A stretch of 64,000 nt of DNA from Hydrolagus affinis (lineage: Eukaryota), in assembly GCA_012026655.1 (NCBI GenBank), contig JAAILG010000309.1, forward strand, positions 1 to 64,000. Direction: 5' to 3'. The position numbers and the translations under genes were made by a program. Under the pieces are notes generated by a model. It did no database searches. It was not told the origin of the DNA and worked only from the letters and a program-made list of their open reading frames with translations. This document shows positions 23,795 through 64,000 of this stretch, one piece after another. How positions within the stretch are numbered: the stretch's first letter is position 1; each line of letters begins with the position of its first letter.

Positions 23795-23860
23795 AATACT
23801 GGCACAGACTCGATGGGCCAAATGGCCTCCTTTTGAGCCGTAAGATTCTATGATTCTATA
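23795..23860 (+). mobile_element. CR1-type 3' tail fragment
   Basis: GACTCGATGGGCCAAATGGCCTCCTT...ATTCTATGATTCTAT octamer tail. Confidence 0.6.
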
Positions 23861-25427: not shown

Positions 25428-25820
25428 TAATAATAATCCTTGCATTTGATACGGTGCTTTTCACGTCTTCTAGACGTCTCAAAGCGCTTCTCAGAATATA
25501 CTGTGAAGTGAATTGACTGTATATGTGTGGGCGAAACTCGGCAGCCAATTGCGCACAGCAGTGTCCCACAAACAGGCGTGGATTGAATTGACCAAACTAT
25601 TATATATTTTTTGAGGGATTATTATCAGGCGTGTGGAGTAAGGAAACATGTCCAGGGTTTCGTCCAGCCTGGAATCAAACCCAGATCTCTCGCTTGTAAG
25701 GCGAGTACTCTAACCAGCGCCTTGGGACGTCCTCCTCCAGCACCTTGTTCTCCTGACATGAAGGGAGCTATACTAGTGTAATTTTGTTGTGGTTGTAACC
25801 ACTGAGCTACAGGATTCCAC
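25428..25820 (-). mobile_element. tRNA-Deu-L2 SINE with an L2 tail nested in its tRNA head
   Basis: Family consensus interrupted at 25717-25795; TAACCA is duplicated on both sides of the insert. Confidence 0.88.
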
Positions 25821-39435: not shown

Positions 39436-40330
39436 CAACAGCAACAACAAAATTACATTTGTAAAGCGCCTTTCGTGTCAGGAGAATGTTCCAAGGTGCT
39501 GAACGATGAGGGATTAAGTAGGTGGGGGGCGGAAAGGGGACAGGGTTGGGATGAGTCAATGCAGAGAGATAGGAAAGCAGTTGAAGGCACACGAGAAAGG
39601 AGGGTCTCGAGTTGTGCCTTAAAGGAGGCCAGGGAGGGAACAAGATAGCATGGAGTTCCAAAGCTTGGGGACAGAGAGGCGGTCAGGGCAACAGTGCTCC
39701 TAGAAGCGAGTGCGGAGGCAGAGAGATAGAGTTGGGTATCATCCCTGCACATGTGGAAGTTGACCCTACATCTGTGGATGAAATCACTAAGCGGGAGCAT
39801 GTAGAGGTTGAAGAGGAGGGGGCTGAGGACATAGCCGTGAGGAACACCGCACAAGGGGGTTGGGAGAGAGATACTGTTGACGGAGACAAATTGGAGACCA
39901 TGTGAGAGATAAGACCTGAACCAGTCAGGGACAGAACCTTGAAGGTTGAACTGAGAGTCGAGGTGGTGGCGGATAATGGAGCGGTCCACGGTATCAAAAG
40001 CAACAAAACGGTCGGAGAGGACGAGGAGGCAGAGGGAAGCCTGGTCAGAGACGGACAGGATGTCTTTTGCGACCTTGACCAGAGACGGTTGTTTTCTGTG
40101 CTGCGATAGGGAGAGATCGACGGTGTCAGAGAGCAGTGGGGCAAAGGAGGCAAGGAGAGGGGTGGGGATAGGGTCAAGGGAGCAGGTGGTGTGGTTCATG
40201 CTGGATATGGTGGTGATGAGAGATGAGGGGGAAGACAGGTTCGAAAATGTGAAGGGATGGATGGGTAGGGGTTGGGGTGTGCGGGGTAGATGGCGAGGGA
40301 GGGAATGGCGGTTGGGAGGGTGGCAGCAGC
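39436..40330 (-). mobile_element. L2 LINE fragment with a decayed, internally deleted reverse transcriptase
   Basis: ORF 39453-40430 has TCSLDPIPT, AFDTVD, GVPHGYVLSPLLFNLYMLPL and FHMCRDDTQLYLS (YADD mutated), then jumps to the L2 3' end and (GTT)n tail. Confidence 0.92.
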
Positions 40331-41589
40331 TGACTGCATTAACTGCAGTAGCTGCAGTATTATTCTGCCACCTGCTGGTAGCCTCTAGTGAAATTTTTTT
40401 TAAACGTCTATCATTCGATGTTTTGCCCACAAAACATGCAGATAATTCACTTTACGGTATATGCTGTGAAACGCTTTGAGATATCTCAGCGACGTGATAA
40501 GGTGCTATACAAATGCAAGGGTTATTATTATGATATTTATAGTTTTTAATAAGAATTATTACTTTAATAAAACTCGCCTGCATTTTAATTTATGAGTTTG
40601 GATTTTCACTGATTTTTTTCATACAGTTAGAAATTCTACATACACCAAAGAACCCTTACTCGGACGCCAGCCTTACACAAAGGCATCTTGGGTGTGTTCA
40701 CGGAGTGGTTGATGAAAATAGGTTGGGCTGTGCTAATATTTACTGCCATGAGAGATAAGGTTACTCAGAAAAGTGAAGGGTTATTTATCTTGAGCCTAAT
40801 CAACCTTTTATCTGAACTGCGTCCAGTGCTCTATGCGATGAAATGAGAAGCGAGTTCCAGTGCAGGAAGTTGATGGCTATAGGATCCCATTATATAATTC
40901 ATCATCTAGACTCGCCCAAAAGAATACTGGAGATATGAAATGATTTACCTCCAGAGAATTACTCTTCCCGATAAACCTTTCTGCTCTGACTGCCGGCGAA
41001 TTGATCATTTCATAAAGTGACCAAATGTTCAGCGCTGAAGAGATATTACAGTGGGATCTTCTTGGAGGTTGGAATGAATCGTAATGTGGTTTGTGACGTC
41101 ATTTAAATTGAACGGGGGAGACCAAAAAGGCTCTCAACTGTGCCCAAGTGAATAGAGTTAGAATAGGCATTGTGCTCTTTGCAGATAATATCCTCACGGG
41201 CTCATGGTGATTATGCAGCTAATACAACAGGTAATATGCAGGTAATACAACAACAACAAAATTACATTTGAATCGCAGCTTACATGTCGAATACATCTGC
41301 AATTTGTGAATTAAACCATCAGAAAGTGGCACTGCTTAACCATAATGCTGCTCATTTTGGTGCTGTTTCCTCAAATGATACATCAAACTCATTAAGGCAC
41401 ATTACTGTGGCTATCTGGCTGCCATTTTTCTCTCAAGAGGTACCCAGCAACTCCACATTACAGCGTATCCTATGAAGCGCTTTGAGACATGTCGACGACA
41501 CGAAGGGTGCTCCATCAAAGGCATTTTATTATTAGTAGTAATATTATTATTATGCCTATGATTTGGATTTTTTACTTTCTCGCTTTGAT

Positions 41590-41794
41590 ATGGGGAAACT
41601 GGCATGGTGTATGGTGCTGAAACTGGTGTCTCGGGCTAGGAACCAATTGAAGAGATTAACCAAGATAGACTGGAACTCAACGGACACAGAAGAGTTTGAG
41701 AAGAGCTGGCCGCTGCTCTCCGATATCAACATCAAGGCGGGGAAGTTTGATCTTGCGATTAAATTGCTCAAACGTTGCTTTGCAGTACAATCAG
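41590..41794 (+). pseudogene. Orphan TTC21 (IFT139)-like exon fragment, frameshifted
   Basis: [56 protein letters not shown], then (+1 frame) LQYNQ|gtgagc. Resembles the recalled TTC21B segment [61 protein letters not shown]. Confidence 0.8.
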
Positions 41795-41844
41795 GTGAGC
41801 TGGCTTGTGACCCAAAACAGCTTGTATTTACTCAGAGCCTGTCA

Positions 41845-42248
41845 TGGAGTTCTATAACTCAGTGGTTAGAGCACTCGTCTTACAAGCGTGAGCGCTGTGT
41901 TCGATTCTAGGCAGGCTAGGGCGAGACCTTTTCCTTACCAGAATCATTATTTCGCCCCCTCCTAGAGAGAGCTTTGTGTCTCTGCCACTTCCAGTAACCT
42001 AAATAGAGGCAAGTTTCCTTACTTGACCTGCCTAATAATAATCCGTCACAAAAAAAACCACAATGATAAAAATTGGTCATTTTCCATCCACGACTGTTTG
42101 TGGGAGACTGCTGTGCGCAATTGCTGCCACGTTTCGCTCACAAATGTACAATCGAATCACTTGACACCATATTCTGTGAAGCGCTTTGAGACGTTGATAA
42201 CATGTGAAAAGCACTCTATCAAATGCAAGGATTAGTATTTTTTATTAC
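41845..42248 (+). mobile_element. tRNA-Deu-L2 SINE carrying an 85-bp insert copied from nearby DNA
   Basis: Family consensus interrupted by 41928-42012. Confidence 0.85.
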
Positions 42249-48666: not shown

Positions 48667-48795
48667 GAACCGATACCACGATATGCTGAAGAGCCGAAGC
48701 CTATTCGCTTGGTCCGCAAGAAGAGAATGTGGGTTCTGGCGCCTTTCCAAATTAAGGAAGAAGATGGAGGCAGGTTTCCTAAATTTGCGACAAAA
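48667..48795 (+). CDS. CDH26: CDH26 exon 3 (short propeptide, furin site, start of EC1)
   Basis: EPIPRYAEEPKPIRLVRKKR/MWVLAPFQIKEEDGGRFPKFATK; RKKR convertase site followed by Trp2. Confidence 0.9.
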
Positions 48796-49313
48796 GTAAG
48801 TTTATTTTAAACTTTTGAATGTCTCGGTTTAGGGATATATGTAGAAAAGTTCAGAAATTCCAACTTTCCCAACTCTGCTTATAGTAATATTAAATAATCT
48901 TTGATATTAAATGTGTCTCATAGCTTATTACTTCAAAGTGTAATGCCTGCATTTTGTAGGTGAACAAGGCAGCCTATTTGCTAACAACAACAAAATTGCA
49001 TTTACATAGCGTCATGCACAAACATGCGAGGAATGATCAACGTTCTCTGGTGTATTGTTAGCCAGGACAATTTAAGATTAGCACAAGTAACTACACACCC
49101 TGCTCCAAATACAATCTTACATTCCATATTAGAGTATTCTGTCCATATTCTCCATTCGAGTTTGGCTTGGCAGATTCTGAGCTTTGTTTTACAGGGTTAA
49201 TGGGAGCTGAGTGGAAAGAATCCCCGCTCCTAGTGACTGGTCTGCCCCTTAAATCCTGCGCATGAGCCAGGCCGGTCCGAGATAACCGTTGAGATAATTT
49301 TTTCTTTTGGCAG

Positions 49314-49469
49314 ATCAACCATGGCAAAAACAAAGACGGTAAAATGAAGTTTAAAATAAGTGGAACCGGAGTGGAAATGCCCCCAGAGATAGGCTTATTT
49401 AAACTTGACTCAGAAGGCATGTTGTGGATTCTACGCAAAGTCGATCGTGAGAAAGTACAAGAATTTAGG
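49314..49469 (+). CDS. CDH26: CDH26 exon 4 (EC1)
   Basis: INHGKNKDGKMKFKISGTGVEMPPEIGLFKLDSEGMLWILRKVDREKVQEFR; PEIGLF is characteristic of CDH26. Confidence 0.93.
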
Positions 49470-49679
49470 GTAAGCTTCGTATTGTCGAGCATCCATGCGT
49501 CATTATTAAATGTGGATTACCAAATTGTTGTCCTATTTAATAATATAGCTCGATGGATTTTACTGTCTTACATTCAAAATACAGGCATCGAGTAGAAGTA
49601 AAATACAGTATATAGTTTTTCCAATTTCCTCAAGTGAATAAACAATTTTATCGCCACGATATCCCTTTTTATTTTGATA

Positions 49680-49872
49680 GCGGCAATGAGATCATTAACG
49701 TCCACCTGTCAAAGGAGGTGGGACTTCTACTTAATTTAATGTGAAGGACAGACTCTTTGACAATGCAGTACTCCCCCACCACTGCGCTAGAGTGTCAGTC
49801 TAGACTATGAGAAGGGGGTTGAACCCCAAAAATATTTACCTCAGAGAAGAAAGTACACCTAAATGAGTCAAG
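49680..49872 (-). mobile_element. Old long-Deu SINE (SacSINE1/AmnSINE1-like), 5' part
   Basis: Minus-strand tRNA-like head, GACTGACACTCTAGCGCAGT...GGGAGTACTGCATTGTC and CAGGTGGACGTTAATGATC. Confidence 0.6.
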
Positions 49873-49958
49873 TAATAAATGGATCATCAGAATTTCTGTT
49901 AGGTCCTGGAGAACACATATTGATTCCAGCCCTTCTGTTTCTCTCAATTTCTATCCAG

Positions 49959-50100
49959 GTGAAAGTTGACGTCTTGAATGATGGAATACACATCGATAAA
50001 TCTCTCATCTTTAGTGTTCAAGTAATTGACATAAATGATAATAAACCGATTTTCAATCAATCATTCTACACAGTCAATGTTCCTGAAAACACTCCTGTCG
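49959..50100 (+). CDS. CDH26: CDH26 exon 5 (EC1-EC2)
   Basis: VKVDVLNDGIHIDKSLIFSVQVIDINDNKPIFNQSFYTVNVPENTPV, with DxNDN and PEN motifs. Confidence 0.94.
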
Positions 50101-51036
50101 GTAAGAATTTATTCTGAGGCATGTTTTGATAATAATAATAATGCTTGCATTTGTAATTGCACCGTATCTCATCTTCGGGACATCTCAAAACACTTCACAT
50201 AATATACTGGTAAGTGAATTGACTGTATATTCTGTGGACAAAATGCCCACAAAATGTACATAAATTTGAATTGCATTTTGAAAATGTAACTAATTAAAAG
50301 TTCACAAGTTCTGTCTGTGTGAAGAAAGCTTATTTTCTTTTGTTCCACTGTCTTGATACATCTTAAAGTACGGATCAAGGTTTACTTTGGCTATAAAAAG
50401 AACACTTGTTCTAAACTGAACACAAGTAGATTTGTATGAACATACAAGAACAAGGGCGGTCAAAATAGCTGCGCCACTAAACACATTCGTTCTTCATTCA
50501 GGAACCTGTCTCAAATCATTTTGAAATGCAGCACAGCCTCATTACAATACATTTCTTTGTAAAACTCAGATTAAATTGTAAAGTGGTTAAGATGTAGATC
50601 ATATGATCATGAATGCCCACAGCCAGCTGGCATTTTTCCTGCGCACTGACCAACCCGTCGTAGGCCATAAATGTCTGGGTTCCTTGTCATTGGGATTTTG
50701 CCAGCGTCAATTTTGGCTTTGTGCACGTGGCGCACGAAGGAAGTGATACCGGTAGTGACCCAATGACTTAGTTTCCCTTTTACGTAGTGCAGGAGTGAGT
50801 CAGTTAGTTGCATCCATGTACGGTGAAAAACAGCTGTTACGCCTCATTGGATCCAATCACCACATTATACCGGTTCCACTATACTGTGGAAACGCTTTGA
50901 AGCACTTTTCATAGAAATCCGTAACATTTCTCTGTACAATTTGTTGCACATTAAGGGCACATCTCAACATACCCCGGTACTAAGCCTCAATTCTTGTGTT
51001 AAGCCTTGGTAGGGATATTCCAACATAAATAATAAT

Positions 51037-51420
51037 AATCAATCAATCAATCAATACTTACATTTATATAGCGCCTTTCATGTCGAGAGGAGGTCCCAAG
51101 GCGCTGTACAGTTAGGTAGGGACAAGAGCAGATGGGGAGGGGTCGGGGCAGGATGAAGAAGAGTAGGAAAATTGACTGTATACTTGTGGGCAAAACGCGG
51201 CAGCCAAATTGCGCACAGCAGTGTCCCACAAACAGTCATAGAAATAGGATTAGAAGAAAAAGGGGGGAAAGATGGCAAGGGGAGGGTTTGGGGCAGGGGG
51301 AAGGAGAGCAGGAAAGCCGACTGTATATTTGTGGGCGAAACGGGCAGCCAAATTGCGCACAGCAGTGTCCCACAAACAGTCGTGGAAATGAGGCCAGGGG
51401 AGAAAGGGGGAAAAGAGGTA
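51037..51420 (-). mobile_element. Headless dimeric Deu-core element with an L2 3' tail and (ATTG)n end
   Basis: Two Deu cores (about 51172-51245 and 51319-51390) separated by purine-rich spacers, then the L2 tail at 51055-51110. Confidence 0.7.
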
Positions 51421-51574
51421 ATAATAAGTGTACGTTACAAGTGACGAAGGGAAAATAAAAGAAGAAGTTCAAAATGATTGATGCAAATTGTAATTAGAAA
51501 CTTTAACACACTTTCCACATTAAATAATGGCCGCTAACACTGTAAATATTTTGAATATTCTGTGTTTTGATCAG

Positions 51575-51732
51575 ATCAAATTTTTTTCAACGTTACCGCC
51601 ACTGACGCAGATGAGGAAAATACCCCCAATTCGGAAATTTCATATTGGTTGGATCCTGAGGCAACACCATCTAAATATTTTAGCCTTGATCAGTCCGGAT
51701 CATTGAGTCTTAAAACCTGCCTGGATTACAAG
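51575..51732 (+). CDS. CDH26: CDH26 exon 6 (EC2)
   Basis: (D)QIFFNVTATDADEENTPNSEISYWLDPEATPSKYFSLDQSGSLSLKTCLDYK; DEENTPNS and CLDY match CDH26. Confidence 0.94.
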
Positions 51733-52514
51733 GTATAATATTTGTGTGAAGAATAATAATCCTTGCATTTGGTTTCATGTCGAGAGGATGCTTTGAAGCA
51801 CTTCAATGATATGTTGTAAAGTGTAATGACTGTGCATTTTGTGAATGAATTCAGCAGCCAATTGGCAGTCAACAATGTCTCCAAAATATCAATCAGGTGA
51901 ATGAGCAATTTTATTTGGAGGATTGTTTGCAGGGACATTGGGGAGTCACCCCCTAACTCTTTTCAAATAGTACTTTAGGATGTTTGACATCACAGGAGCT
52001 ATACCAAATACAAGCATCATTATTAGAGTAGCTGTACACTGATGTAATATATGTAATACATCCCTACTGTTAATTAGTATTAGAATTGGTTCAATTGTAT
52101 TACTGTATTAAATTCAATATATTAATTTTTATATACTGTATATTATAAATGATATAAACACACCACAACAACTTACACTTATATAGCGTCCTCAACACAG
52201 GAAAGCGCCTTTGAGTGCATAACAGTGGCGGAGACACACACATAATGAAACTAATAAATGTTGTAATTTAATTTAATCTCATGATTTAATCTCAGATATG
52301 TACAGTACATTGAGTTGTACGGAAATTAATCAACTGCCTTGAGCAGTCAAACTTTTGACAAGTCAGTGTTAACAAGTCATTAATTTTACAATCTTATTCG
52401 AAGCGTTCTCCCTCCTTATTATGTTTGTTGACATTTTCAATTTTTTTGATCGAATTAAACATTTGAAGCACAACTTTTGTTCACTGTTCTAAATTGGAAT
52501 CGTTTATGTTTTAG

Positions 52515-52643
52515 AAGGAGAAATCTTACACTATTATTGTTCATGCAAGCGACAATGGAAGTCCAAAGTTGTCCTCCTCCACAATTGTGCACATTAACGT
52601 TCGAATGGCTAATAAGCATCTCCCCGTTTTTACACAAACCAGT
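52515..52643 (+). CDS. CDH26: CDH26 exon 7 (end of EC2)
   Basis: KEKSYTIIVHASDNGSPKLSSSTIVHINVRMANKHLPVFTQTS|gtgagt. Confidence 0.92.
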
Positions 52644-52810
52644 GTGAGTATTTCTTTCTATGCACGTTGTTGTAATCGTGTCCTGCTAGATATAACATAT
52701 TTATTATTCCACTCTTCCATTAAGGTCCTATTCGTACCAAGGTTTACCTGCTCATTCTCCCTGTGTCTACAAATGTTGAGTCTCTAACACTGGCTTATCG
52801 CAATCTTTAG

Positions 52811-52996
52811 TTTACAGGTAAAGTTTCTGAAAACAATACAAATGTGGTTATAGTAAGGTTAAGCATTACTGATGCTGACATGCCCAGTACACCAGCCTGG
52901 CGGGCGAAGTATAGAATAGTGGAAGGCAATGAAAGAGGATTCTACAAGATTGAAACTGATACAGAATCGAATGATGGAATTCTAACCCTTATAAAG
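52811..52996 (+). CDS. CDH26: CDH26 exon 8 (EC3)
   Basis: FTGKVSENNTNVVIVRLSITDADMPSTPAWRAKYRIVEGNERGFYKIETDTESNDGILTLIK. Confidence 0.94.
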
Positions 52997-53132
52997 GTAA
53001 GCATTTAAGTTGTGGGTGGTTTTTAATTTATTGTCAAATAAAATAACAGCCAATGACTCCTGACCAATTCTGGAGTTCGGCAATTGTGAAAAGGGAATCG
53101 TAGAAAAATTGGTTTCACAATTGAGGCTGCAT

Positions 53133-53406
53133 TTCAGTCTCTCTGCCCCCCACACTCCGGAACTCCATCTTGTATTCCCTTTGCCTTGCTTCCTCCCTTT
53201 CCTCCTTCAAGGCCGGTCTCAAGACCTTCCCCTTCGACCGCGCCTTCTGCTGCCCTCCTAACTCTCCCCCCTTTCCTACTCTCCGTCCCACCTCCCCTTC
53301 CCCGACTCTTCCCCACCCTGACTGTTCAGCGCCTTGGAACGTCCTCCCGACGTGAAAGGCGCTTTATAAATGTATTTTTGTTGCTCTTTTGTTGTTGTTG
53401 TTGTTG
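53133..53406 (+). mobile_element. L2 3' fragment
   Basis: SSFKAGLKTFPFDRAF motif, L2 tail and (GTT)n. Confidence 0.85.
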
Positions 53407-54102
53407 CATTTAAGAATTTGTCCAATTCTTTTCCTGGCTAACGATCCCCAATTGAAGTGGATCATTCACTTTGCGGCTGTTTGCGGGGCATTGCTGTGAA
53501 TGGTGTGCCGTACGCGCTTCGAGATGTAGGCCCACATGAAAGGTGCTCCGTTCCTGCAAGTTGCTCTTGTCGTTAGCAAAATTGGATGTTGCGTTTACTT
53601 ACAAATACACAGACTCTTCACTTTTACAGTAGTTCCTGAGATGTTTTGCTGATGCAATCAGCGAGGATTATTACTGGTTTTAATTCTGGATGGATACTTT
53701 AAAATGCTACATAAATAAGAATAAGTCTAGACCTGGGGGGGTGGTGGGGGGAATGTCAGAATTTGGATGTCCAAAACTGAGCTTCCTGTCCAGCAACTAA
53801 TCTGGGTTGGAAGGTGGTAGAAGGAAATTCAGTTGGATGACTGATGGAAAGTTCACTGCAAACGCACTCAGCTCAATAGTCATATTCCCAAGCTTCAAAT
53901 GAAAATAGCCAAGTAGATAGCAATATCATATGAAGTAGGAGAGCTGGTGAACAAATGTGTTTACCAGTGAAAAAGTAAAGGGTATTCCCTCTGTTGGGGT
54001 TAACATCTACCCGCCTGGGTACATTGGGGAAAGAAAAAGCCTTTACCATCAGCTGGTTTAGCTGATCACACTCAGTGCGGATATATTCTTATCTATTTAC
54101 AG

Positions 54103-54362
54103 CATTTGGATTTTGAAGCTGGTGAACTCGGTCAACTGAAGATTGCGGTTGATAATGAAGAACCTTATCGGACTTGTCGACGTATGTCAAGGAAAGCAAT
54201 TGATTTCGCACGTGTAACAGTCACTGTGGACGATGCGAATGATGCCCCTGTAGTCATCCCTCCGCAAGCACGTGTAGTCAGAGAGGAAGGTCTCAGCCCG
54301 GGAAATAAATTGTTTCAATTTACTGCCAGGGATCCCGATAAATTATTTAAAAATAAAATCAG
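54103..54362 (+). CDS. CDH26: CDH26 exon 9 (EC3-EC4)
   Basis: HLDFEAGELGQLKIAVDNEEPYRTCRR...VTVDDANDAPVVIP...REEGLSPG...ARDPDKLFKNKI(R). Confidence 0.94.
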
Positions 54363-54680
54363 GTAAGAAAGAGCAAACAAATGTGTGTCAAACAATTTTG
54401 AACAAGCGTATTCATATTAGAAGGCTGACATTTTGGGGGGGTGGGGGGGTGGGGGGGGGGAGCCACAGCAGACGCAGCCTCTGAATGGCCTCCTGTGCGG
54501 TAAGATTGTATGATCCTATGATTTAATATTCATCACAAATCACACCATGCAACACGATGAATATCTCTACCAGTGCACGTGAACCTATGGATGATTACTC
54601 AGTGAGGAGGGACAAGTCACTCTCTGTGAATTGCGTGCTGTGGGGGCAAAGTGATTTGACAATTGACTTTTGTTTGAAAG

Positions 54681-54826
54681 GTTTGTCATCGGGTACGATC
54701 CCGAGAGTTGGGTTACCGTGGACCCAGAGACGGGTGTGGTGACCAACATCAACGTGCTGGACCGAGAATCGTCCCATGTGAACGGGAGTGGGTTTTATAA
54801 AGTCATTGTGCATGCAGTTGACAATG
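54681..54826 (+). CDS. CDH26: CDH26 exon 10 (EC4)
   Basis: FVIGYDPESWVTVDPETGVVTNINVLDRESSHVNGSGFYKVIVHAVDN. Confidence 0.95.
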
Positions 54827-54861
54827 GTAAGTTCCTACTGTCTTTAATGTGATTTAGCGGC

Positions 54862-55163
54862 GTCCCGTGGCTCAGTGCAGTCGCCTCGCGAGTGAGAAAG
54901 CTGGGTTCAATTCCCAGCAGGGAAAACCCTTGGGAAATTCTCTTTATTCCACATGCCTGACAATAATCCCTCCAAGAACAAACAGTAATAAATTGGTCGC
55001 TTCAATCCACGCGACTGTTGTAAGATGCTGCTGTGCACAATTGACTGGCTCGTTTCGCCCCCACAAATATGCAGTCAATTCACCTTGCTGTATATTCTGT
55101 GAAGCGCTTGGAGACATCTAGAAGATGTGAAAAGTGCTATATCAAATGCAAGGATTATTATTA
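54862..55163 (+). mobile_element. tRNA-Deu-L2 SINE (diverged)
   Basis: Family consensus with a small deletion in the head. Confidence 0.82.
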
Positions 55164-55724
55164 GTGTCTATTAAATTAAATGAAATGCTTGTGTGATTTT
55201 TCACGTTTCAAATTTAAATGGTGGTTCGACTGGATGAAGCTGTGGTCTGAAGCGATGAAGTTGATTGCCTTGGGATGTCCTCTGGACGTGAATGGCGCAA
55301 TACAAATTTAAATTGTTGTTTTTGGTAAGGATGTGAGAAAGACAATGGAATCACTTCTAGCAGCAAGAGTCACGTGCAACCAGTTGAGCATTTAGAGACA
55401 AACCTACTTTGCTCAGGACAACAAGAATTTAACCTTAAAAGACCGGGTAACACTGGGTTCCTTAAATAAATGCTCAATTTTCCTTTTTTCTTCTTTGAAG
55501 TTTGCAAACGAATATGTTTCGGAAGCAAACAACTTCAAAGTTGCGCCTGAGTTCGACAATTTGCCAAATTCTGGAGGCTCTAAAATACAAATTCAAGAGA
55601 GTAATTCAGGACCTGTTTGGAATTTCTACCCTTTGATTTCTGAACTGTGTCGTCAATTAGAGCCAAAAACCATCAAGCGTCCATTTAACACAGAGGCTGT
55701 GTTAATCCCTTTCTCTCTCTCCAG

Positions 55725-55949
55725 CTACACCTCCATTAACAGGGACCGGCGTTTTGAATATTTTGCTGGATGACATTAATGACAACAAGCCGTACTTGGT
55801 ATCTTCGAAAGAAACGATGTGTGATGAAGGAGACATGTGGGCTGTCACTCTGAAAGCAGCAGATAGTGACTTGCCTCCATTCAGTAGCCCATTTACCTTT
55901 GAGCTTTTGGACAATGCAAAGGAGAAATGGAAATTGGGAAAAACGACCG
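55725..55949 (+). CDS. CDH26: CDH26 exon 11 (EC4-EC5)
   Basis: (A)TPPLTGTGVLNILLDDINDNKPYL...CDEGDM...ADSDLPPFSSPFTFELLDNAKEKWKLGKTT. Confidence 0.95.
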
Positions 55950-56263
55950 GTGAGTTGTAACGCATTGACTTTGCTCAGATTTAATTGATACCCGAGCCTC
56001 AGACAAGTTTGAATAGTCAACCAATTGGATGAACAGTCATTCAACGCCTCCCTTTCTTTGCCTGCCCTAAGACCTATCTTTTCAACCACATCCCCCTCTC
56101 TCGGGTGTCCAGTCATCTAGTAAAGCACTTTGATACATCTTGCCATTGTGAACCCATTGTTGTTGAAATAACTTCGCAGAAATACATCATATGTGATGCA
56201 TCTGTACTTAGTCACGTGCAAGCAACCTAAAATTTATCAAATGTATTTTGTTTGTCACATCAG

Positions 56264-56485
56264 ATAAAACTGTTGAATTGATGAGGATTTCAAAAGTTGT
56301 CATTGGAAATTACACCATACCTTTAAATATACGTGATCAACAAGGCTTGGGTAAAGAGAGCATTCTAAACCTACATGTCTGTCATTGTGACCATAAAAAC
56401 ACCTGTCCTGGTGCAATGACCCCAACAGCTATCTTGGGAACTTCTGCGATAATTGCTCTCTTTGCTGGCATCTTGGTTTTACTAA
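56264..56485 (+). CDS. CDH26: CDH26 exon 12 (EC5 and start of transmembrane helix)
   Basis: (D)KTVELMRISKVVIGNYTIPLNIRDQQGLGKESILNLHVCHCDHKNTC...ILGTSAIIALFAGILVLL. Confidence 0.94.
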
Positions 56486-56674
56486 GTAAGTATACGCAGT
56501 CATGGGCGCAAACATTACAGGGACTCTGCGGGAAATAGTTTTGTAATTTTTTTTCAAACTAATTAAACACAAATTGAATATTATGTTTAAAGTTCTTTTA
56601 ATCGCACTCCCCCCACCACCACCCACCCTCACCCCCTCCTACACATAGCTTCAGCCCCATAATTGTTAGCTCAT

Positions 56675-56912
56675 ATTCTAGACTGCCACTCCAGTGCAGT
56701 GCTGGCAGAGAGTTGCATTGTTGCAGATGCTATCTATCAGATGAGGTGTTAAATCGAGGCCCTGTCTGCCTGTTCAGGGGATATTAAAGAGCTCACATTA
56801 CTACTCGAAAAGAGAAAGGCGTTTCTCCTGGTGTCCTAGGCAACAATTTTTCAGCTGAAATTGTTTTTCACTTCAAAGCTGTTTGATGGACATTGTGGTC
56901 GCAAATTGTCCA
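56675..56912 (+). mobile_element. Old long-Deu SINE (SacSINE1/AmnSINE1-like)
   Basis: ACTCCAGTGCAGT...GATGAGGTGTTAAATCGAGGCCCTGTCTGCCTGTTCAGG...CTCCTGGTGTCCTAGGCAAC, the extended Deu domain. Confidence 0.75.
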
Positions 56913-57219
56913 CTGGACAAACAATCCAGCAATCCAGATTCCCATTTGGATTCAATCATAGAAAAACCTATTAGTAATCACACACTATTAATGTTCTTTT
57001 AAATGAAACCCTTTTTAATTAAAAAAATTGCAGTAAATGTTTTGTTGAATAATTCACAATTTTAATTTGCAGTGTTATTTCCTGCATAATGCAATGTTTT
57101 CTACAGAACTTAACATGTTTATTTTTTCTGTCGAAAAATTTATTTCGAATGCAACTTGTGGGAAAAGGCAATAAAGAATGGTTCTAATTCACCTTGTCTC
57201 TCTTTTTTTTAAAAAAAAG

Positions 57220-57338
57220 TTGGTACCTGTTTGCTCTTCCTCATGGATGAAAAGCACTTTGAGCCAATGTATGACAACCAGGAACTCAAAACCTCACTAC
57301 GAATGTATAATGAAGAAGCAGGGTGCTCTGAGGATAAC
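57220..57338 (+). CDS. CDH26: CDH26 exon 13 (end of TM and juxtamembrane region)
   Basis: (I)GTCLLFLMDEKHFEPMYDNQELKTSLRMYNEEAGCSEDN|gtaagt; YNEEAG resembles the p120-binding YDEEGG motif. The acceptor is unusual (T8A8G). Confidence 0.8.
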
Positions 57339-57489
57339 GTAAGTGACTTCACAACACTTAAAACAATCTGATTTACTTGGAACAGCACACATATTTGTTA
57401 AACTATGTAATAAATGGGGAGAAATGACACACGCATTGAGCTTTAGCCAATGAATATTCATATAGTACTTTTCATGACCATGGAGGAAA

Positions 57490-57937
57490 TCTCAAAGCAC
57501 TTCACAATGCTGGATATGCACCAGAGCTGGATGGGCACAGTAGCCAAGGTGGGTGGAGAGGGGAAAGATGACCAAGAGGATGATCAAAAATCCATATTTT
57601 AAGACATGCCTTGAAAGTGGGGAGCGAGGGATTGGGTTGGAGGGACTCCAGTTCTGCAGAGCAGCAGCAGAATGGCTGAACGCCCTGGCAGCGCAAATCC
57701 TTGGGAAAGTTTCCTCACTCCACATGCTTAACAATAATCCCTCGAAATAAAACAACAATAATTTTGTCACTAAATCCACGACTGTTTGTGGGACATTGCT
57801 ATACAGTACGCAATTGGCTGCTGCGTTTTGCCCACAAATATACAGTCAATTCACTTTGCAGCATATTCTGTGAAGCGTTTTGTGACCTCTAGAAGATGTG
57901 GAAAGCACTATGTCAAATGCCACGATGATTATTATTA
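57490..57937. mobile_element. L2 fragment (minus) joined head-to-head to a truncated SINE (plus)
   Basis: RAFSHSAAALQNW and PTFKACLK motifs on the minus strand up to about 57690; SINE body from about 57692. Confidence 0.75.
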
Positions 57938-58485
57938 AATTCTGTACGCTTCAAAGTTCTTTAAAGCTACACCAGGTATTTTTTCCCTGCACAATGAATT
58001 TGCCTTTTCGGTGAAAGTTGGTGAAATTTATTATATTTTTGAGGCAGTAACCCACTTAGTTAAGTCACACCCTTAATTCGTAAGACAATTTGTATTACTA
58101 TCAATAATTCATTTCCACTATGTCAGGGATTTTAATGAAACAACAACCACAACAATAACAAAATTATACTTGTATTGCGCCTTTCCCGTCAGGAGGACGT
58201 CCCAAGGCGCTGGACAGTCATTATTTCAGATTGCAAAATCCACAAAGAGGATGTATGTTAGCTGTTTCAGTTAACAATGATCAAACTGGGGTGTTATTTG
58301 CAGTTATTGTGTTTTTGATGCAGAATTATAGCTCAAAATTCTAACCAAACTGGTCTTTGCTTTTTATTTTGCACATGAGCCTCTGCATCTCCTATTCCAC
58401 TCTTAGTATTTTGTCTCTTATATCTGCGTCAAGTGTGTTCAATGCATTTTGCATTAATTTTTCAATTTTTGCATTGTAATTTCAG

Positions 58486-58575
58486 ACCATTATTTTCAAA
58501 GCTATTTCACAGACAAAGGGAGAGAGTGGAGCTGGGAACCCAAGTCAGTCTGGGTCACAGATGAGCCAATATAAA
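58486..58575 (+). CDS. CDH26: CDH26 exon 14 (cytoplasmic, low complexity)
   Basis: ttcag|TIIFKAISQTKGESGAGNPSQSGSQMSQYK|gtaagt; 90 bp, phase 0-0. Confidence 0.7.
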
Positions 58576-59054
58576 GTAAGTACGTAGTTAATGTCTTTAA
58601 CATCTCTCCTCTAAAAGACACGAAGAGCTGCTAAAGAATATATTTCACCTACTCGAAATAAATGCAACTTTCAGATACATTAATATTATTGTTGTGAATA
58701 ATCAGTTAATATTTGTATTGGTGCAAAATTGGAAACTTGATGTCTCTTTAAACATGTTTTAATTTGTCTCCGTGCCACATTGTTTATACAGTACATCTTA
58801 CTGGCTTGATACCTGACGTTTGAGCTCAATCTCAGATCCACACAATAAAAGTTATACCCTCACATTTAGCTCATATTGCAGACATGTATTTCCAGGTCTT
58901 AGTATAAATATTTTAAATAAGTCTGAATAAAGCTATTCAAATTCAGTTTCAGTTCAGCCCAATGACATATGGTAAGTTTGGGACAGATTAGCCCTTTAGA
59001 GTTTTGGTATTGTTTATCTTAAATAATAGTAATCCTTGCATTTGGTACAGCATG

Positions 59055-59518
59055 TCCTCCGCTCCAAGCTCTGCAACCTTCCCCATTCTCATCTGACAAC
59101 ATTTGCTCTCCATCACTCAGAGGATTCAATTCAAGATCCTGGTCCTCCCTCAACTTCAAAGCCCTCCATGGCTTCGCTGTAACCTATATTTTCGACCTCC
59201 TAATCCTGTACTACCTGCCCATTCCCTCCTCTCATCAGGCAGGAGCCTCATCAGTGAGCAAGAACGTCAGCCACTCTGTCCCTAACCTCTGAAATTCCAT
59301 CCCACAATCCCTCCGCCTCACCCCCTCCCTAGCCTCCATCAAGTCCCGTCTCAAGACCCTCCTCTTCGATGGATCCATCAGTCACCCCAATTCGCCTCCT
59401 TTCCCTCCACCCTCCCTGATCCCGACCCCAGCTTGGGTCTGAAACATTGACTGTCCAGTGCCTTGGGACACCCTCCCAATATGACAGGCGCTATATAAAT
59501 AGAATTTGTTGTTGTTGT
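59055..59518 (+). mobile_element. L2 3' fragment
   Basis: ITQRIQFKILVL motif, L2 tail and (GTT)n. Confidence 0.85.
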
Positions 59519-59744
59519 AGCATATTTCTCATCACGGGGATGTTAAAACCACTTCACTACATTTACTATGAAGAGCACTCGATAGCGTTGAGGAATTGTG
59601 ATGGTTTATCCATATATCTTTTTGTCTAAGTATTAATGAGACTTTCTCATTGATGTGCATTCCCATACAAATGAATCAATGGTTGTTCTTGTCTGAGCCC
59701 ACGCCCGTCTCCAAAACCTAATTGTCACTGTTGCATGTGTTGAC

Positions 59745-60092
59745 TGAGGTTTTTAAAATAATAAAGGGTGTAATAGGGTGGATGCAGAGCAATTATTTTC
59801 TCTGGTGGGGGAATGCAAACAGGGCATCATCTTAAAATTAGCGCTAGGCCGTTTAGAAGTGAAATTAGGAGGCAGTTTTTCACCCAAAGGATAATGGAAA
59901 TCTGGAACTCTCCCAAATGGCTGTGGATGTTGGATCCATTCACATTTTCAGGTCGAAGGTCAGCGAATTAAGGATTATGGGATAAGGGTAGCTAAGTGGA
60001 CTTGAGGTACAGATCAGCTATGATCTTATAACACGGTGGAATAGACTTGAAAGGTTGACTAGCCTAGTGTTTTTTCTATCTTTTCTATGTTA
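59745..60092 (+). mobile_element. CR1 3' fragment
   Basis: GGGCATCATCTTAAAATTAG...TTTTCACCCAAAGG...TGGAACTCTC...GATCAGCTATGATC, then a TTCTATG tail. Confidence 0.75.
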
Positions 60093-60379
60093 TGAATAAT
60101 TCTATATTACATGATGCATACGTGTGTATGTGTGTGCGTGTTCTTTGAGACATCCTTCTGACATGAAAAGCACTTTACCAAACACAAGGATTACCATTAT
60201 TATAAGTTACAATTCTGCCACTTTGGTGGACATTTTCACTCCTAGAACAAACTGTCTGTTTCTAAATGCATCAATGTTTAGTTCTAACGAATCAAGCGTT
60301 TATAATAATCTGTCCTCTGGAGGGCGCTTCCTGCTCACCTAATTGAAGAGAGCAAAATCCAATGTTGGGGAAACGTGTA

Positions 60380-60590
60380 TATATATAAATGGGTGAAACG
60401 TGGCAGCCAATTGTGCACAGCAGTGCCCCACAAACAGTCGTGGATTGAAATTACCAATTTATTATTGAGGGATTATTATCAGGTGTGCGGAGTAAGGAAA
60501 TTTGCCCAATGTTTCACCCTGCTGGGAATCTAACCCAGGCCTCTCACTTGCAAGGCAAGTGTTCTAACCATTGAGCTACAGGATTCCCAC
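60380..60590 (-). mobile_element. tRNA-Deu SINE lacking the tail
   Basis: Head and core on the minus strand. Confidence 0.85.
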
Positions 60591-60977
60591 TCCCGCAAGG
60601 ATCGAAGTCCGAAGTCATCTAAACATGAAAGATCATTAATGCTACATGTGACAGACTGTCCATCATTTACCAAGACAAACAAGTGTTTCATCAAAAGATA
60701 CCAGGAAACTTTTCCTTCCTGCATGTATCTAGGATTTGAGTGATGAATCTCATAGGTCTAAGCAAAATTCACCATATATCCGATATTAATTAATATGGCT
60801 TCTACTCACCCAAGTTGAACTTATAAAATGGCGGAATAGATTTGAGTGACTGAATAGCCTACTCTTGTTTCTATATTTCTATGCTATCAATAATTCTGTA
60901 TTATATAATGCATATGTGTGTGTAGGGGGGGATGTGCACATGTCTAATATAAAAAAAAATTAAATCTGTACTATCAG

Positions 60978-61058
60978 AATTCGAGATCTAATCAAACAGG
61001 AATAGTGGTAATCAAGAAAAACAGTTCAACTGATATCAACAATGCTTGGAGAAAATCT
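60978..61058 (+). CDS. CDH26: CDH26 cytoplasmic exon A, copy 1
   Basis: cag|NSRSNQTGIVVIKKNSSTDINNAWRKS|gtaagt; 81 bp, phase 0-0. Confidence 0.65.
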
Positions 61059-61269
61059 GTAAGTAATTATTTCCCTCTCTCCATTTAGACTGTTCTATAG
61101 AAGTAGAATAAATTTCAAGTTATAATGTTGGTACCACTGTAATGTAATTGTTTCCAAAGTACAATGTAGCATTTAACTAAATGCATTATGTTGCTCAGAG
61201 AAGTGTGTCTGGTTTAAAAAGTAGGACAAAACATTTACTGAATTCTTGATTTTGTGTCAAAAGTATTAT

Positions 61270-61800
61270 AATCCCCGCATTTTGTTTGGAGACAGTGCAT
61301 GACGGATCACACTGTAATTTTTCACATAGCAACGTCCTACAAACAGCTGTGGAGTGAAGGACCAATTTTATTTGGAGGATTGTTAAACAGTCAGGACACT
61401 GGGTGAAAACTCTCTTCTCTTTTAGAATGGAGCCATGGGTTTGTTTAATATCCAGCTAAACGAGCAGACAGCTTATCATTTCATCCGAAGGTTGTGAGTT
61501 CAAATCTCTCATCGGGACTTGAACGCACATGGTCTAAGATGACAATCCAATGCAGTGCTTGGGAGGTGTGCTGGAGGTGCCATCCTCCGCATGAAACATC
61601 AGACTGGGGTCTTATCCGTTTGTTCAGGTGGACGTCAAAGATCCCAAAGTACCATTTGAAAAGAGAAGGATGTTTCTCATGGTTTGCTGGCCAACAATCG
61701 CCTGAATACAATTGGTCATGGCTGGAGGTTATTATCGTGCTTGACAGTGCTGACGTTCTGTCTCCATTTCATAGTAATTCCTGTGAAGTTCTTTGAGACA
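61270..61800. mobile_element. Two old long-Deu SINE fragments in inverted orientation
   Basis: Minus-strand Deu at about 61270-61490 and plus-strand Deu at about 61485-61800 (TTCAGGTGGACGTCAAAGATCCC). Confidence 0.65.
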
Positions 61801-61810
61801 TTGTTCCAAC

Positions 61811-61910
61811 NNNNNNNNNNNNNNNNNNNNNNNNNNNNNNNNNNNNNNNNNNNNNNNNNNNNNNNNNNNNNNNNNNNNNNNNNNNNNNNNNNNNNNNNNN
61901 NNNNNNNNNN
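61811..61910. other. Assembly gap (100 N)
   Basis: Run of n. Confidence 1.
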
Positions 61911-62121
61911 TAAAATTCTATGAATCTATGAAAGGCACTATGTCAATTGCAAGGATTACCATTATTATAATTCTGCCACCTGGGTGTTGTGGACATTTCC
62001 ACTTGAGAACAAACTGTCTAATTTCTAACTTTACTATAAGCTCAGGTGAATATCATTCATATTATAGCATTTGATCAAGGAAATTATTTAGTTCCAAAAT
62101 ATGTTCAACTCTCTCTTCCAG

Positions 62122-62172
62122 CCTGGTTACATGTACCACAACAGGACACAATATGAAGGTTCCCTCCAGAAT
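62122..62172 (+). CDS. CDH26: CDH26 cytoplasmic exon B, copy 1
   Basis: ctctctcttccag|PGYMYHNRTQYEGSLQN|gtaagt; 51 bp, phase 0-0. Confidence 0.7.
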
Positions 62173-62817
62173 GTAAGTGACTTGATAAAGCAGGAAAAAG
62201 CTGTATTGTCAAAGTATCATATAAGTACTAGTTCTATTTAATGGATCAAGCATTTATTACAATCTGTGCTCTGGAGAGTATTTCCCCACTCATTTAGTTA
62301 AAGAGAGCATTAGGTCACAGGATTGCAAAATCCAAGGTTGGGGACTTCGAACGCCACAAATCTCTGCAATGGTAATATTAGCGATGTTAATTGGAGGAAG
62401 TGAGTTAAGAGGGCATTTTATAATTGGAGAGACACAGTATTGAAGTCTGCAAATCATCAAAACATGCACCAGAAAGATCACTAGTGCTATATGTGTGACA
62501 GGCCATCCATCATTTACCGAGAACAAACAAGTGTTTCTTCAAAAAATACCAGGAAACTGCCTTCCCACATATTTCTTGGAATTGAGTGATGAATCTCAAA
62601 TGTCTAAATAAAATTCACCCTAGATCCAATATTAATGAATATGGCTCCTTATAAAATGGCGGAATAGGCTTGACAGTCTGAAAAGCCTACTCTTGTTTCT
62701 ATGTTTCTATGCTATCAATAATTCTGCATTATACAATGTATACGTATGTGTCTGTATGTGTGTGTGGATATGTGCACATGTCTAATTTAAAAAATATATT
62801 TAAATCTGTACTATCAG

Positions 62818-62901
62818 AATTCGAGATCTAATCGAACAGGAATAGTGGTAATCAAGAAAAACAGTTCAACTGATATCAACAATGCTTGGAGAAAATCTGT
62901 G
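62818..62901 (+). CDS. CDH26: CDH26 cytoplasmic exon A, copy 2 (altered donor)
   Basis: NSRSNRTGIVVIKKNSSTDINNAWRKS(V); the donor changed to GTGGTAATT, so the exon ends at 62898 or 62901. Confidence 0.5.
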
Positions 62902-63235
62902 GTAATTATTCCCTCTCTCCATTTAGACTGTTCTATAGAAGTAGAATAAATTTCAAGTTATAATGTTGGTACTACTGCAATGTAATTGTTTCCAAAGTAC
63001 AATGTAGCATTTAACTAAATGCATTATGTTGCTCAGAGAAGTGTGTCTGGTTTAAAAAGTAGGACAAGACATTTACTGAATTCTCGATTTTGTGTCAAAA
63101 GTGTTATAATCCCTGCAAACTGTCTGTTTGTACATGCATAAAAGTTCATATAGGCTCAGGTGAATATCATTCATATTGTAGCATTTGATCAAGAAAATTA
63201 TTTAGTTCCAAAATATGTTAAACTCTCTCTTCCAG

Positions 63236-63286
63236 TTTGGCTACATGTACCACAACAGGAGTCAATTTGAAAGTTACCTCCAGAAC
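63236..63286 (+). CDS. CDH26: CDH26 cytoplasmic exon B, copy 2
   Basis: ctctctcttccag|FGYMYHNRSQFESYLQN|gtaagt; joins in frame to the catenin-binding exon. Confidence 0.78.
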
Positions 63287-63467
63287 GTAAGTGACTTGAT
63301 AAAGCAGGAAAAAGCTTTATTGTCAAAGTATTCGTATAATGATAAGTACTAATCACTGTGTTTGTTGTGCCAACTATACAGAGTAATTTATTGAAACCAT
63401 AGGTATCTATTGATCACTTCATTGATCAATTTAACTATTAACACTATTCTTGAGTCTTATTTTAAGT

Positions 63468-63789
63468 AGAGCTCCTGTAGCTCAGTGCTTAGAGCACTCG
63501 CCTTACAAGCGTGAGACCTGTGTTCAGGTCAGGCAGGTCAGGGCGAAACCTTGGGCAAGTTTCCTTATCCACACACACTCCTAATAATAATCCCTCCAAA
63601 AAAACCACAATAATAAAAATTGGTCATTTCAATCCACGACTGTTTGTGGGACGCTGCTGTGCGCATTTGGCTGCCGCGTTTCGCCCACAAATACACAGTC
63701 AATTCACTACAGTAAATTCTGTGAAGCGCTTTCAGATGTCGATAAGATGTGAAAAGCGCTATATCAAATGCGAGGATTATTATTATTAT
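63468..63789 (+). mobile_element. tRNA-Deu-L2 SINE
   Basis: Family consensus. Confidence 0.88.
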
Positions 63790-63864
63790 CTGTGGGTCAG
63801 ATTTTTTTGTTTCTGAAGAGAAAGATCCCATGTTAATATAGCTTCTGCTCATCTAATTTTTCAG

Positions 63865-64000
63865 AGAATTGAATTCCAAAGTAAAATAAATTATGTGGAT
63901 TACGAGCCTCATGTTTACCATCATGAAGATGAAGACAACACAGCGCTATCTCTTGATGATCTCAAAGTGGTTGACGATATTGTGGACTTCAAATACTTGG
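63865..64000 (+). CDS. CDH26: CDH26 last coding exon (catenin-binding region), truncated by the window end
   Basis: RIEFQSKINYVDYEPHVYHHEDEDNTALSLDDLKVVDDIVDFKYL...; DYxPHVY matches the CDH26 tail. Confidence 0.88.

What the first reader, a model, noticed from the sequence alone, without database searches (positions are those of the whole stretch)
60600..63340. Tandemly duplicated symmetric exon pair (A-B-A'-B') in the CDH26 cytoplasmic tail
Seen: exon A (81 nt) at 60978 and 62818 and exon B (51 nt) at 62122 and 63236 are all phase 0-0 and lie between the p120-type motif and the catenin-binding exon. A and A' differ at 1 of 81 nt, and their downstream intron is nearly identical. B and B' differ at 9 of 51 nt with 5 amino-acid changes (PGYMYHNRTQYEGSLQN vs FGYMYHNRSQFESYLQN), yet both keep perfect splice sites and no stops. 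B' (FESYLQN-RI) best fits the helix before the catenin-binding region. Inference: a lineage-specific modular tail in which any exon combination stays in frame, changing spacer length and the number of Tyr motifs. The mosaic divergence suggests gene conversion around A and diversification of B. Inverted SINEs at 60380 (-) and 63468 (+) bracket the whole cassette.
Basis: partly seen in the sequence, partly recalled or inferred. Interest (0 to 1): 0.75.

Follow-up and report, generated by a model that had tools for sequence, protein, structure and literature searches.

The report
Exon turnover in cadherin-26 tail
The inner tail of a cadherin-26 gene, likely from a chimaera, holds three head-to-tail copies of a short stretch, two with predicted frame-neutral exons and one stripped of them, which likely reflects the copying and loss of spacer pieces also seen in many cadherin-26 tails, not a special switch.

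Summary
The duplication is real, and the coordinates and differences (1/81, 9/51, 5 aa) are right. The gene is the orthologue of Callorhinchus cadherin-like 26 (70% identity). An artefact is unlikely. The gap lies inside one unit, before a LINE-type tail. A roughly 2%-diverged relative has separate contigs for both copies.

- A' has lost its 81-nt donor (GTGGTA). Only a shifted, in-frame 84-nt donor remains.
- A has weak splice sites and only modest homology support.
- A third unit (60025-60810) has lost both exons.
- Exon C (58486-58575) was missed.
- The inverted SINEs are chance (12 of 27 neighbouring pairs are inverted).

B' keeps the ancestral state and B is the derived copy. B differs more than its flanks (9/51 vs 4/123, p=0.002) but no more than older intron copies.

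Unrelated tandem repeats occur in 11 of 26 cartilaginous-fish and 10 of 87 other CDH26 tails. The best reading is birth-and-death of symmetric exons in a loosely constrained spacer. No RNA covered the gene, so splicing is untested. The scan noted similar tails in other shark and ray genes, none in CDH26.

The parts
57220..57338 (+). First cytoplasmic exon (phase 1-0) with the YNEE juxtamembrane (p120-type, label recalled) motif
   Evidence: tblastn to the Callorhinchus orthologue 51% identity, E 3e-6
58486..58575 (+).
   Evidence: splice-site rank 3 of 187; no significant homologue in 9 relatives
60025..60810 (.). Unit U0: exon-less remnant. Keeps the pre-A intron (60025-60141), x (60140-60280) and y (60281-60378, 60598-60800); A with its downstream intron and B are deleted
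   Evidence: self-BLAST hits E 1e-21, 5e-14, 2e-7; 14-20% divergence from the other units; three-way alignment
60390..60583 (-). SINE copy inside segment y of U0, absent at the matching place in U1
60816..62647 (.). Unit U1: pre-A, A, z, inserted repeat, gap, x, B, y
60978..61058 (+). Predicted exon A, 81 nt, phase 0-0, weak acceptor and donor
   Evidence: rank 33 of 187; its last 12 aa resemble the W-bearing segment before B in 3 sharks (73-127 of 2000 shuffles each)
61811..61930 (+). 100-N gap, then a LINE-type (CR1-like, label recalled) tail at 61915-61930; likely hides one retroelement inserted into segment x of U1
   Evidence: two marker words occur only twice each in the window, 48 nt apart in U0 and on either side of the gap in U1; the same tail follows repeat ends at 23845 and 54505
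62122..62172 (+). Predicted exon B, 51 nt, phase 0-0, derived copy with the strongest splice sites
   Evidence: rank 1 of 187; scores below B' against 10 of 10 relatives
62648..63339 (.). Unit U2: pre-A, A', z, shortened x, B', 50 nt of downstream flank
62818..62901 (+). A': original donor after 62898 degraded; alternative in-frame donor after 62901 (84 nt, adds Val)
63236..63286 (+). Exon B', 51 nt, phase 0-0, ancestral-type copy, orthologous to the single Callorhinchus segment before the last exon
   Evidence: score 46, 0 of 500 shuffles (B: 35, 1 of 500)
63467..63789 (+). SINE copy 128 nt beyond the end of the duplicated DNA
63865..64000 (+). Last coding exon (runs off the window), with the PHVY..E..SLD segment equivalent to the catenin-binding region (equivalence recalled); lacks the YEG word
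   Evidence: tblastn E 7e-5 to the Callorhinchus and Carcharodon proteins

Best explanation
The cadherin-26 tail region holds three diverged head-to-tail units, two carrying copies of two short frame-neutral predicted exons (A and B) and one stripped of both, which likely reflects near-neutral birth and death of exons in a loosely constrained spacer. SHOWN: three units; deletion of both exons from U0; loss of the original A' donor; an intact frame; B' closest to relatives; unrelated tandem repeats in many other CDH26 tails. INFERRED: (1) an older duplication (about 14-20% divergence) and a later one (about 11%) of a unit whose left end lies in a LINE tail at about 60025; (2) later conversion between U1 and U2 over A-z and the flanks of B (about 3%); (3) the copies are tolerated because every exon is phase 0-0 and encodes a predicted disordered linker between the juxtamembrane motif and the last exon; (4) B', next to the last exon, keeps the hydrophobic pattern of the helix that precedes the catenin-binding segment, while the upstream B has drifted into extra linker. 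PREDICTED: the main mRNA runs C-A-B-B'-last, with A' skipped or included as 84 nt, and any isoform variation is leaky and not regulated.
For: Three units and exon loss in U0. A' donor at random-GT level. B' beats B against 10 of 10 relatives; at position 14 relatives have F/I/L/V/Y (B' Y, B S), and none has B's P1, Y11 or G13. B/B' divergence (9/51) matches older intron divergence (13/120, p 0.22; 44/285, p 0.68). Tandem repeats of period 18-60 aa in 11 of 26 cartilaginous-fish and 10 of 87 other CDH26 tails, 10 and 5 of them with score 80 or more. The units are unrelated, and at least 5 separate events fall among the 11 rows of the orthologue clade (count inferred). Public models of Callorhinchus and Hyperolius differ by whole repeat units. 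All five exons together give a spacer of 144 aa, within the family's interquartile range of 102-147 (73 of 124 proteins measurable). FoldIndex-type scores are negative for all five exons and positive for two extracellular exons.
Against: B differs from B' far more than its immediate flanks do (9/51 vs 4/123, Fisher p 0.002; vs 13/386, p 0.0003). A neutral model therefore needs conversion or constraint on both sides of B while the exon escapes. B keeps the best splice sites in the region. The mutation that damaged the A' donor left an in-frame replacement, which may be selection to keep A'. The family comparison rests on predicted gene models and on proteins, so exon boundaries in relatives are inferred. 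The one non-CDH26 control tail also beat 30 shuffles (score 42 vs 32), so the weaker repeats may be false.
Confidence: 0.58

Rival explanations
1. Regulated combinatorial splicing: the four exons form a modular cassette whose combinations tune spacer length and tyrosine content.
For: Every combination stays in frame. B and B' have strong sites, A and A' weak ones, as skipped exons often do (established knowledge). The A' donor moved by exactly 3 nt. Public models of relatives differ by whole spacer units.
Against: One unit lost both exons and A' lost its original donor. The arrangement is not shared with Callorhinchus. The SINE bracket is at chance level. No function is known for spacer length.
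Confidence: 0.17
2. B was driven apart from B' by selection and is kept distinct against gene conversion, giving the tail a new motif.
For: 9/51 vs 4/123 in the flanks (p 0.002). If the flanks date the split, 5 or more changes on B have probability 0.002. The changes that can be polarised (positions 1, 11, 13, 14) favour B as the derived copy. In the sawshark protein three 19-aa B-like copies also differ most at their ends. B's changes spell YEGS, like the DYEG word of classical cadherins (P0061).
Against: Two of the nine differences are plainly synonymous on about 8 synonymous sites, a rate as high as the replacement rate. There is no excess over older intron copies (p 0.22, 0.68). The changes remove hydrophobic residues, as drift would. 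YEGS lacks the upstream P-x-V-Y context and was noticed after the fact.
Confidence: 0.12
3. A and A' are not exons; only B is a duplicated exon and the A region is copied intron.
For: A ranks 33 of 187. 13 candidates in the region, and 2 in 6,633 nt of other introns, are as strong on both sites. No significant local match in 9 relatives. A is not better conserved than the intron after it (1/81 vs 13/386, p 0.48).
Against: Three sharks have a W-bearing segment directly before their B-equivalent that resembles A's end (73, 127 and 78 of 2000 shuffles; 5 of 5000 when anchored on the W, a post hoc and inflated test). Homology-supported exons of this gene have acceptors as weak (down to -7.6).
Confidence: 0.1
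4. Assembly artefact: two haplotypes or overlapping contigs joined at the gap.
For: A and A' lie on opposite sides of a 100-N gap and differ at 1 of 81 nt. None of the 16 pieces shown bridges the gap.
Against: B, A' and B' all lie right of the gap. The units differ by 11-20% over much of their length. The gap flanks are collinear halves of one segment, with a LINE-type tail between them. Run X11 (organism B, about 2% diverged) has separate contigs on 60631-60988 (14 differences) and 62476-62942 (9 differences), which are homologous stretches about 81-86% alike, plus one on 62117-62479.
Confidence: 0.03

Closest known systems
Callorhinchus milii cadherin-like protein 26, XP_007909979 / XP_007909975 / A0A4W3JHB7 (P0003, P0265, P0266, P0267)
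   Same: Orthologue: sister row at 100% SH-aLRT, 70% identity over 549 columns (quick tree). It has the same juxtamembrane exon, one B-equivalent and the last exon, and its spacer varies by whole units between models (0, 1 or 2 copies).
   Different: Only one B. Its 23-aa spacer unit is unrelated to A or C and matches the antisense translation of the SINE (14 of 21 identical, E 3e-6 within the window), so it is likely an exonised SINE, not a duplicated old exon.
Repeat-expanded CDH26 tails of sharks, rays and tetrapods (Pristiophorus 19 aa x3, Mustelus 23 aa x2, Hypanus/Mobula 27 aa, Scyliorhinus canicula 30 aa, Heptranchias 54 aa, Hyperolius 23 aa, Antechinus 28 aa)
   Same: Tandem repeats in the same spacer, between the juxtamembrane motif and the last-exon segment. 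The sawshark repeats look B-like and the Mustelus repeats A-like by position.
   Different: Different unit sequences and lengths. Here a two-exon unit was copied and a third unit was emptied. Exon structure of the relatives was not seen.
Consecutive symmetric exons encoding disordered regions, grown by internal tandem duplication (Schad et al. 2013, PMC3632108; passages read)
   Same: A run of same-phase exons, similar to each other and predicted disordered.
   Different: That study covers human genes in bulk. CDH26 or a recurrent hotspot did not appear in the passages seen.
Tandem exon duplication-derived substitutions / mutually exclusive homologous exons (PMC8373072, passages; Dscam arrays, PMC3236188, passages)
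   Same: Homologous exons from tandem duplication. The Dscam paper argues that lack of conversion between exon copies may reflect selection.
   Different: Those events swap one homologous exon for another and are often ancient. Here the copies alternate (A-B-A'-B'), are young, show conversion-like tracts and have no transcript evidence.

Membership tests
CDH26 (cadherin-like protein 26) | Extracellular cadherin repeats, one transmembrane segment and a cytoplasmic tail in one frame | tested here: met
   17 exons, no stop; all extracellular exons match the Callorhinchus protein at 63-82%
CDH26 (cadherin-like protein 26) | Groups with proteins annotated CDH26, not with E-cadherin-type | tested here: met
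   best full-length hit P0003, 67%, E 9e-29; named; tree of 36 rows, inside an 11-row clade at 98% SH-aLRT (quick tree, careful search unfinished)
CDH26 (cadherin-like protein 26) | Binds catenins and integrins | not testable with these tools
   Human data conflict: binding reported (review PMC8703627, section 3.3); no co-immunoprecipitation with catenins in airway cells (PMC5809386 passages)
Tandemly duplicated symmetric exons in a disordered region | Consecutive exons of one symmetric phase | tested here: met
   C, A, B, A', B' all 0-0 as predicted exons
Tandemly duplicated symmetric exons in a disordered region | Exons and flanking introns homologous, head to tail | tested here: met
Tandemly duplicated symmetric exons in a disordered region | Encoded segment disordered | tested here: met
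   rough FoldIndex-type score -0.05 to -0.26 vs +0.07 and +0.09 for two extracellular exons; a prediction only
Tandemly duplicated symmetric exons in a disordered region | Copies are spliced into mRNA | tested here: inconclusive
   the two RNA runs laid did not cover the gene
Mutually exclusive homologous exons (tandem duplication-derived substitution) | One copy replaces the other in transcripts | tested here: inconclusive
   no transcript data; the copies alternate and nothing blocks joint inclusion
Mutually exclusive homologous exons (tandem duplication-derived substitution) | Both copies conserved over long time | tested here: not met
   Callorhinchus models hold one B-like and no A-like segment
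Exon skipping or circularisation driven by an inverted SINE pair (Alu-pair type, recalled) | Inverted pair specific to the cassette | tested here: not met
   12 of 27 neighbouring SINE pairs inverted; 7 of 12 exons bracketed; arms 77% alike
Exon skipping or circularisation driven by an inverted SINE pair (Alu-pair type, recalled) | Skipped or back-spliced RNA exists | tested here: inconclusive
   gene not covered in the RNA laid

The most novel reading that the evidence does not exclude
The CDH26 cytoplasmic spacer is an unrecognised hotspot that jawed vertebrates have rebuilt many times by different routes: duplication of old exons here and in sharks, and SINE exonisation in Callorhinchus. 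In this lineage the extra B copy was pushed to a new sequence and is kept distinct against gene conversion, so splicing gives tails that differ in the segment next to the catenin-binding region.
Probability: 0.17. Interest if true: 0.62.

Novelty: new member of a known kind. Interest (0 to 1): 0.3.

Why it matters
As a single locus this is ordinary: duplicated symmetric exons in a floppy tail. Its use is as a readable snapshot of exon birth and death, with an emptied unit, a shifted donor, a drifting copy and a conserved copy side by side. The wider pattern is more interesting. CDH26, unlike the short conserved tails of classical cadherins (recalled; only one control here), has had its spacer expanded independently many times. 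I found no paper on this in five searches, though most subscription papers on cadherin evolution are outside the library. If splicing of these units is regulated, it would give a natural series for testing how linker length affects catenin binding, which is disputed for human CDH26.

Tried and rejected
- No whole genome is held for the window.
- No RNA holder listed. The two single-cell RNA runs of organism B (about 27% and 30% read) gave zero depth in the bin holding exon 52515-52643. No exon-to-exon joint was among the 15 joints shown of 11,642; what was laid was mostly SINE reads. This is uninformative about splicing.
- Base-level states of the A' donor and of B in relatives were not obtained and stay open.
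- Protein searches with the last exon and the juxtamembrane exon found no transcript-derived relative (weak evidence).
- Pfam gave nothing for the tail exons; A's PTPase hit (E 0.098, below cut-off) was rejected.
- Homology of A or C to relatives by local alignment: none significant in 9 proteins each. C vs A, C vs B and A vs B at DNA level: chance.
- B derived from the juxtamembrane exon: 49 and 11 of 2000 shuffles, largely the shared donor consensus; not accepted.
- SINEs as breakpoints or as a splicing device: rejected as chance.
- A single unequal crossover between two old units: rejected by reasoning, since it predicts near-identical U0/U1 in y, which differ by 14-19%.
- Repeat scan: 113 of 122 proteins tested; 9 dropped for tail length or cadherin repeats after the membrane segment. 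P0194 was left out as an isoform. For Callorhinchus the two-copy older model P0266 was used; the current model has one copy. Rows are related and not independent.
- Control with non-CDH26 classical cadherins: only 1 of 150 proteins was usable.
- No structure or complex was predicted, since the informative chains span several exons.
- Look-alike windows in the scan: none.

Full report
SETTING. The window is SINE-rich vertebrate DNA with one 100-N gap at 61811-61910. A cadherin gene runs on the + strand. Seventeen AG/GT-bounded exons from 48667 to 64000 give one open frame. A search of 1.84 billion representatives with one extracellular exon gave P0003 as the best full-length match (67%, E 9e-29), named Callorhinchus milii cadherin-like protein 26. 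In a tree of 36 extracellular regions the window is sister to it at 100% SH-aLRT with 70% identity (quick tree only). The organism is therefore likely another holocephalan (inference).

OBSERVATION. Coordinates, lengths, phases and difference counts are as reported. Three things were missed. First, the 81-nt A' no longer ends at a usable donor: it scores -6.85 against 1.3-7.4 for the gene's other 15 donors, while a new GT three bases on gives an in-frame 84-nt exon scoring 2.17 (approximate recalled matrix). Second, another phase 0-0 exon, C, lies at 58486-58575. Third, the duplicated DNA is three units, not two. The stretch 60025-60810 repeats the intron before A, the segment before B and the segment after B, but lacks A with its downstream intron and lacks B. 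In the pre-A intron U0 stands alone at 17 of 116 columns, U1 at 5 and U2 at 7, so U0 is the older split.

ARE THEY EXONS? Among 187 open phase 0-0 candidates between the juxtamembrane and last exons, B ranks 1, C 3, B' 4, A'(84) 16, A 33 and A'(81) 84. B' is supported by homology to the single Callorhinchus segment before the last exon (0 of 500 shuffles). A has no significant local match in 9 relatives. Three sharks have a similar W-bearing segment just before their B-equivalent (about 4-6% of shuffles each), which is modest support. No RNA evidence was obtained: the two single-cell runs of a relative did not cover the gene.

ARTEFACT? Unlikely. B, A' and B' lie on one side of the gap. Two marker words occur only twice each in the window, 48 nt apart in U0 and on either side of the gap in U1, and the gap is followed by a LINE-type tail seen also at 23845 and 54505. 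The gap thus likely hides an element inserted into U1. Runs X2 and X11 differ from the window at about 2% of sites. X11 has separate contigs on 60631-60988 and 62476-62942, each 96-98% like its own copy although the copies are about 81-86% alike, plus one over B (16 of about 200,000 pieces shown, none across the gap). Extra units inside the gap cannot be fully excluded.

MOSAIC. U0 vs U1 differ by 14-19%, pre-A of U1 vs U2 by 11%, A plus its downstream intron by 8 of 300, and the B flanks by 4 of 123. The drop occurs near 60950-60970. This fits old duplications with later conversion (inferred). B vs B' (9/51) exceeds its flanks (p 0.002) but not the older intron copies (p 0.22 and 0.68). Two differences are plainly synonymous on about 8 synonymous sites, so there is no replacement excess. 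B' scores above B against all 10 relatives, and B has lost a hydrophobic residue that all 10 keep. Drift in a released copy explains this. Selection keeping B distinct remains possible, because both flanks are homogenised and the exon is not.

SINES. There are 28 hits in 64 kb. 12 of 27 neighbouring pairs are inverted, and 7 of 12 exons tested are bracketed that way. The minus copy sits inside U0, not at a breakpoint. No role is indicated.

FAMILY CONTEXT. Of 113 CDH26 tails tested (122 given, 9 dropped), 11 of 26 from cartilaginous fish and 10 of 87 others hold a tandem repeat above all 30 shuffles with z over 4; 10 and 5 score 80 or more. The one non-CDH26 control also beat its shuffles at score 42, so only the strong cases should be trusted. 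The units are unrelated: 19 aa three times in sawshark, 23 aa in Mustelus, 27 aa in Hypanus and Mobula, 30 aa in Scyliorhinus canicula but not in the S. torazame models, 54 aa in Heptranchias, 23 aa in Hyperolius, 28 aa in Antechinus. In the 11-row orthologue clade six rows carry repeats, at least five events (inference). Callorhinchus models carry 0, 1 or 2 copies of a 23-aa unit that matches the antisense translation of the SINE in this window. With all five exons the window's spacer is 144 aa, inside the family's interquartile range of 102-147 (73 of 124 measurable). These are predicted models, and related rows are not independent.

MECHANISM. Most likely (0.58): near-neutral birth and death of symmetric exons in a predicted disordered linker, with B' retained next to the last exon, B drifting, A' skipped or shifted and U0 emptied. 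Rivals: regulated combinatorial splicing (0.17), selected divergence of B (0.12), A not an exon (0.10), artefact (0.03).

LITERATURE. Schad et al. (PMC3632108, passages) describe disordered regions built from symmetric exons by internal tandem duplication; this is the known kind. PMC8373072 (passages) and PMC3236188 (passages) cover swapped homologous exons and Dscam arrays, which differ. For human CDH26, PMC5809386 (passages) reports an 18-exon main form and no catenin co-immunoprecipitation, while a review (PMC8703627, section 3.3) reports catenin binding from a primary paper I did not read. Searches (listings only) showed no paper on repeats in CDH26 tails, and one search showed none on SINE exonisation in this gene. 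Subscription journals and supplements were not seen and may hold such notes. An earlier scan note gave the lead to the Schad paper.

VERDICT. Real, partly misread, and a new member of a known kind. Interest 0.3; the family-wide recurrence is the part worth following.

Noticed in passing
P0266/P0003 (Callorhinchus) vs window 25619-25681 (+), 38645-38583 (-), 60473-60535 (+): The 23-aa spacer unit of the Callorhinchus orthologue matches the antisense translation of the abundant SINE (14 of 21 identical, E 3e-6): a likely exonised SINE, present 0, 1 or 2 times in public models. An antisense SINE also sits in the matching intron here, but with GC in place of a GT donor.
   Followed up: partly
window 41542-41907 (+): Uninterrupted frame matching Pfam ARM_TT21_C (TTC21 C-terminal, E 6e-17), running into a SINE; possibly a retrocopy fragment.
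   Followed up: no
window 39453-40448 (-): Degenerate LINE reverse transcriptase fragment (RVT_1, E 1e-7).
   Followed up: no
window 58193-58252 (+): Open phase 0-0 candidate ranking 2 of 187 by splice score, overlapping an antisense repeat end (58149-58230); a possible repeat-derived cryptic exon. Exon C also has an in-frame inner acceptor at 58513.
   Followed up: no
window 62152-62163 and 63865-64000: B's changes spell YEGS, like the DYEG word of classical cadherins, while the last exon here and in Callorhinchus lacks YEG, which shark orthologues keep. Probably coincidence.
   Followed up: partly
P0151 (Pristiophorus): Three 19-aa copies of the B-position segment, with the last copy keeping the hydrophobic end: a parallel to B and B'.
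   Followed up: partly
window 57336-57349 vs 63284-63297: Fourteen identical bases around the donors of the juxtamembrane exon and B' (11 of 2000 shuffles, mostly splice consensus).
   Followed up: partly
P0003, P0073, P0108 (Callorhinchus): Three CDH26-like paralogues are listed with the same longest contig length; the window holds only the orthologue of XP_007909979.
   Followed up: no
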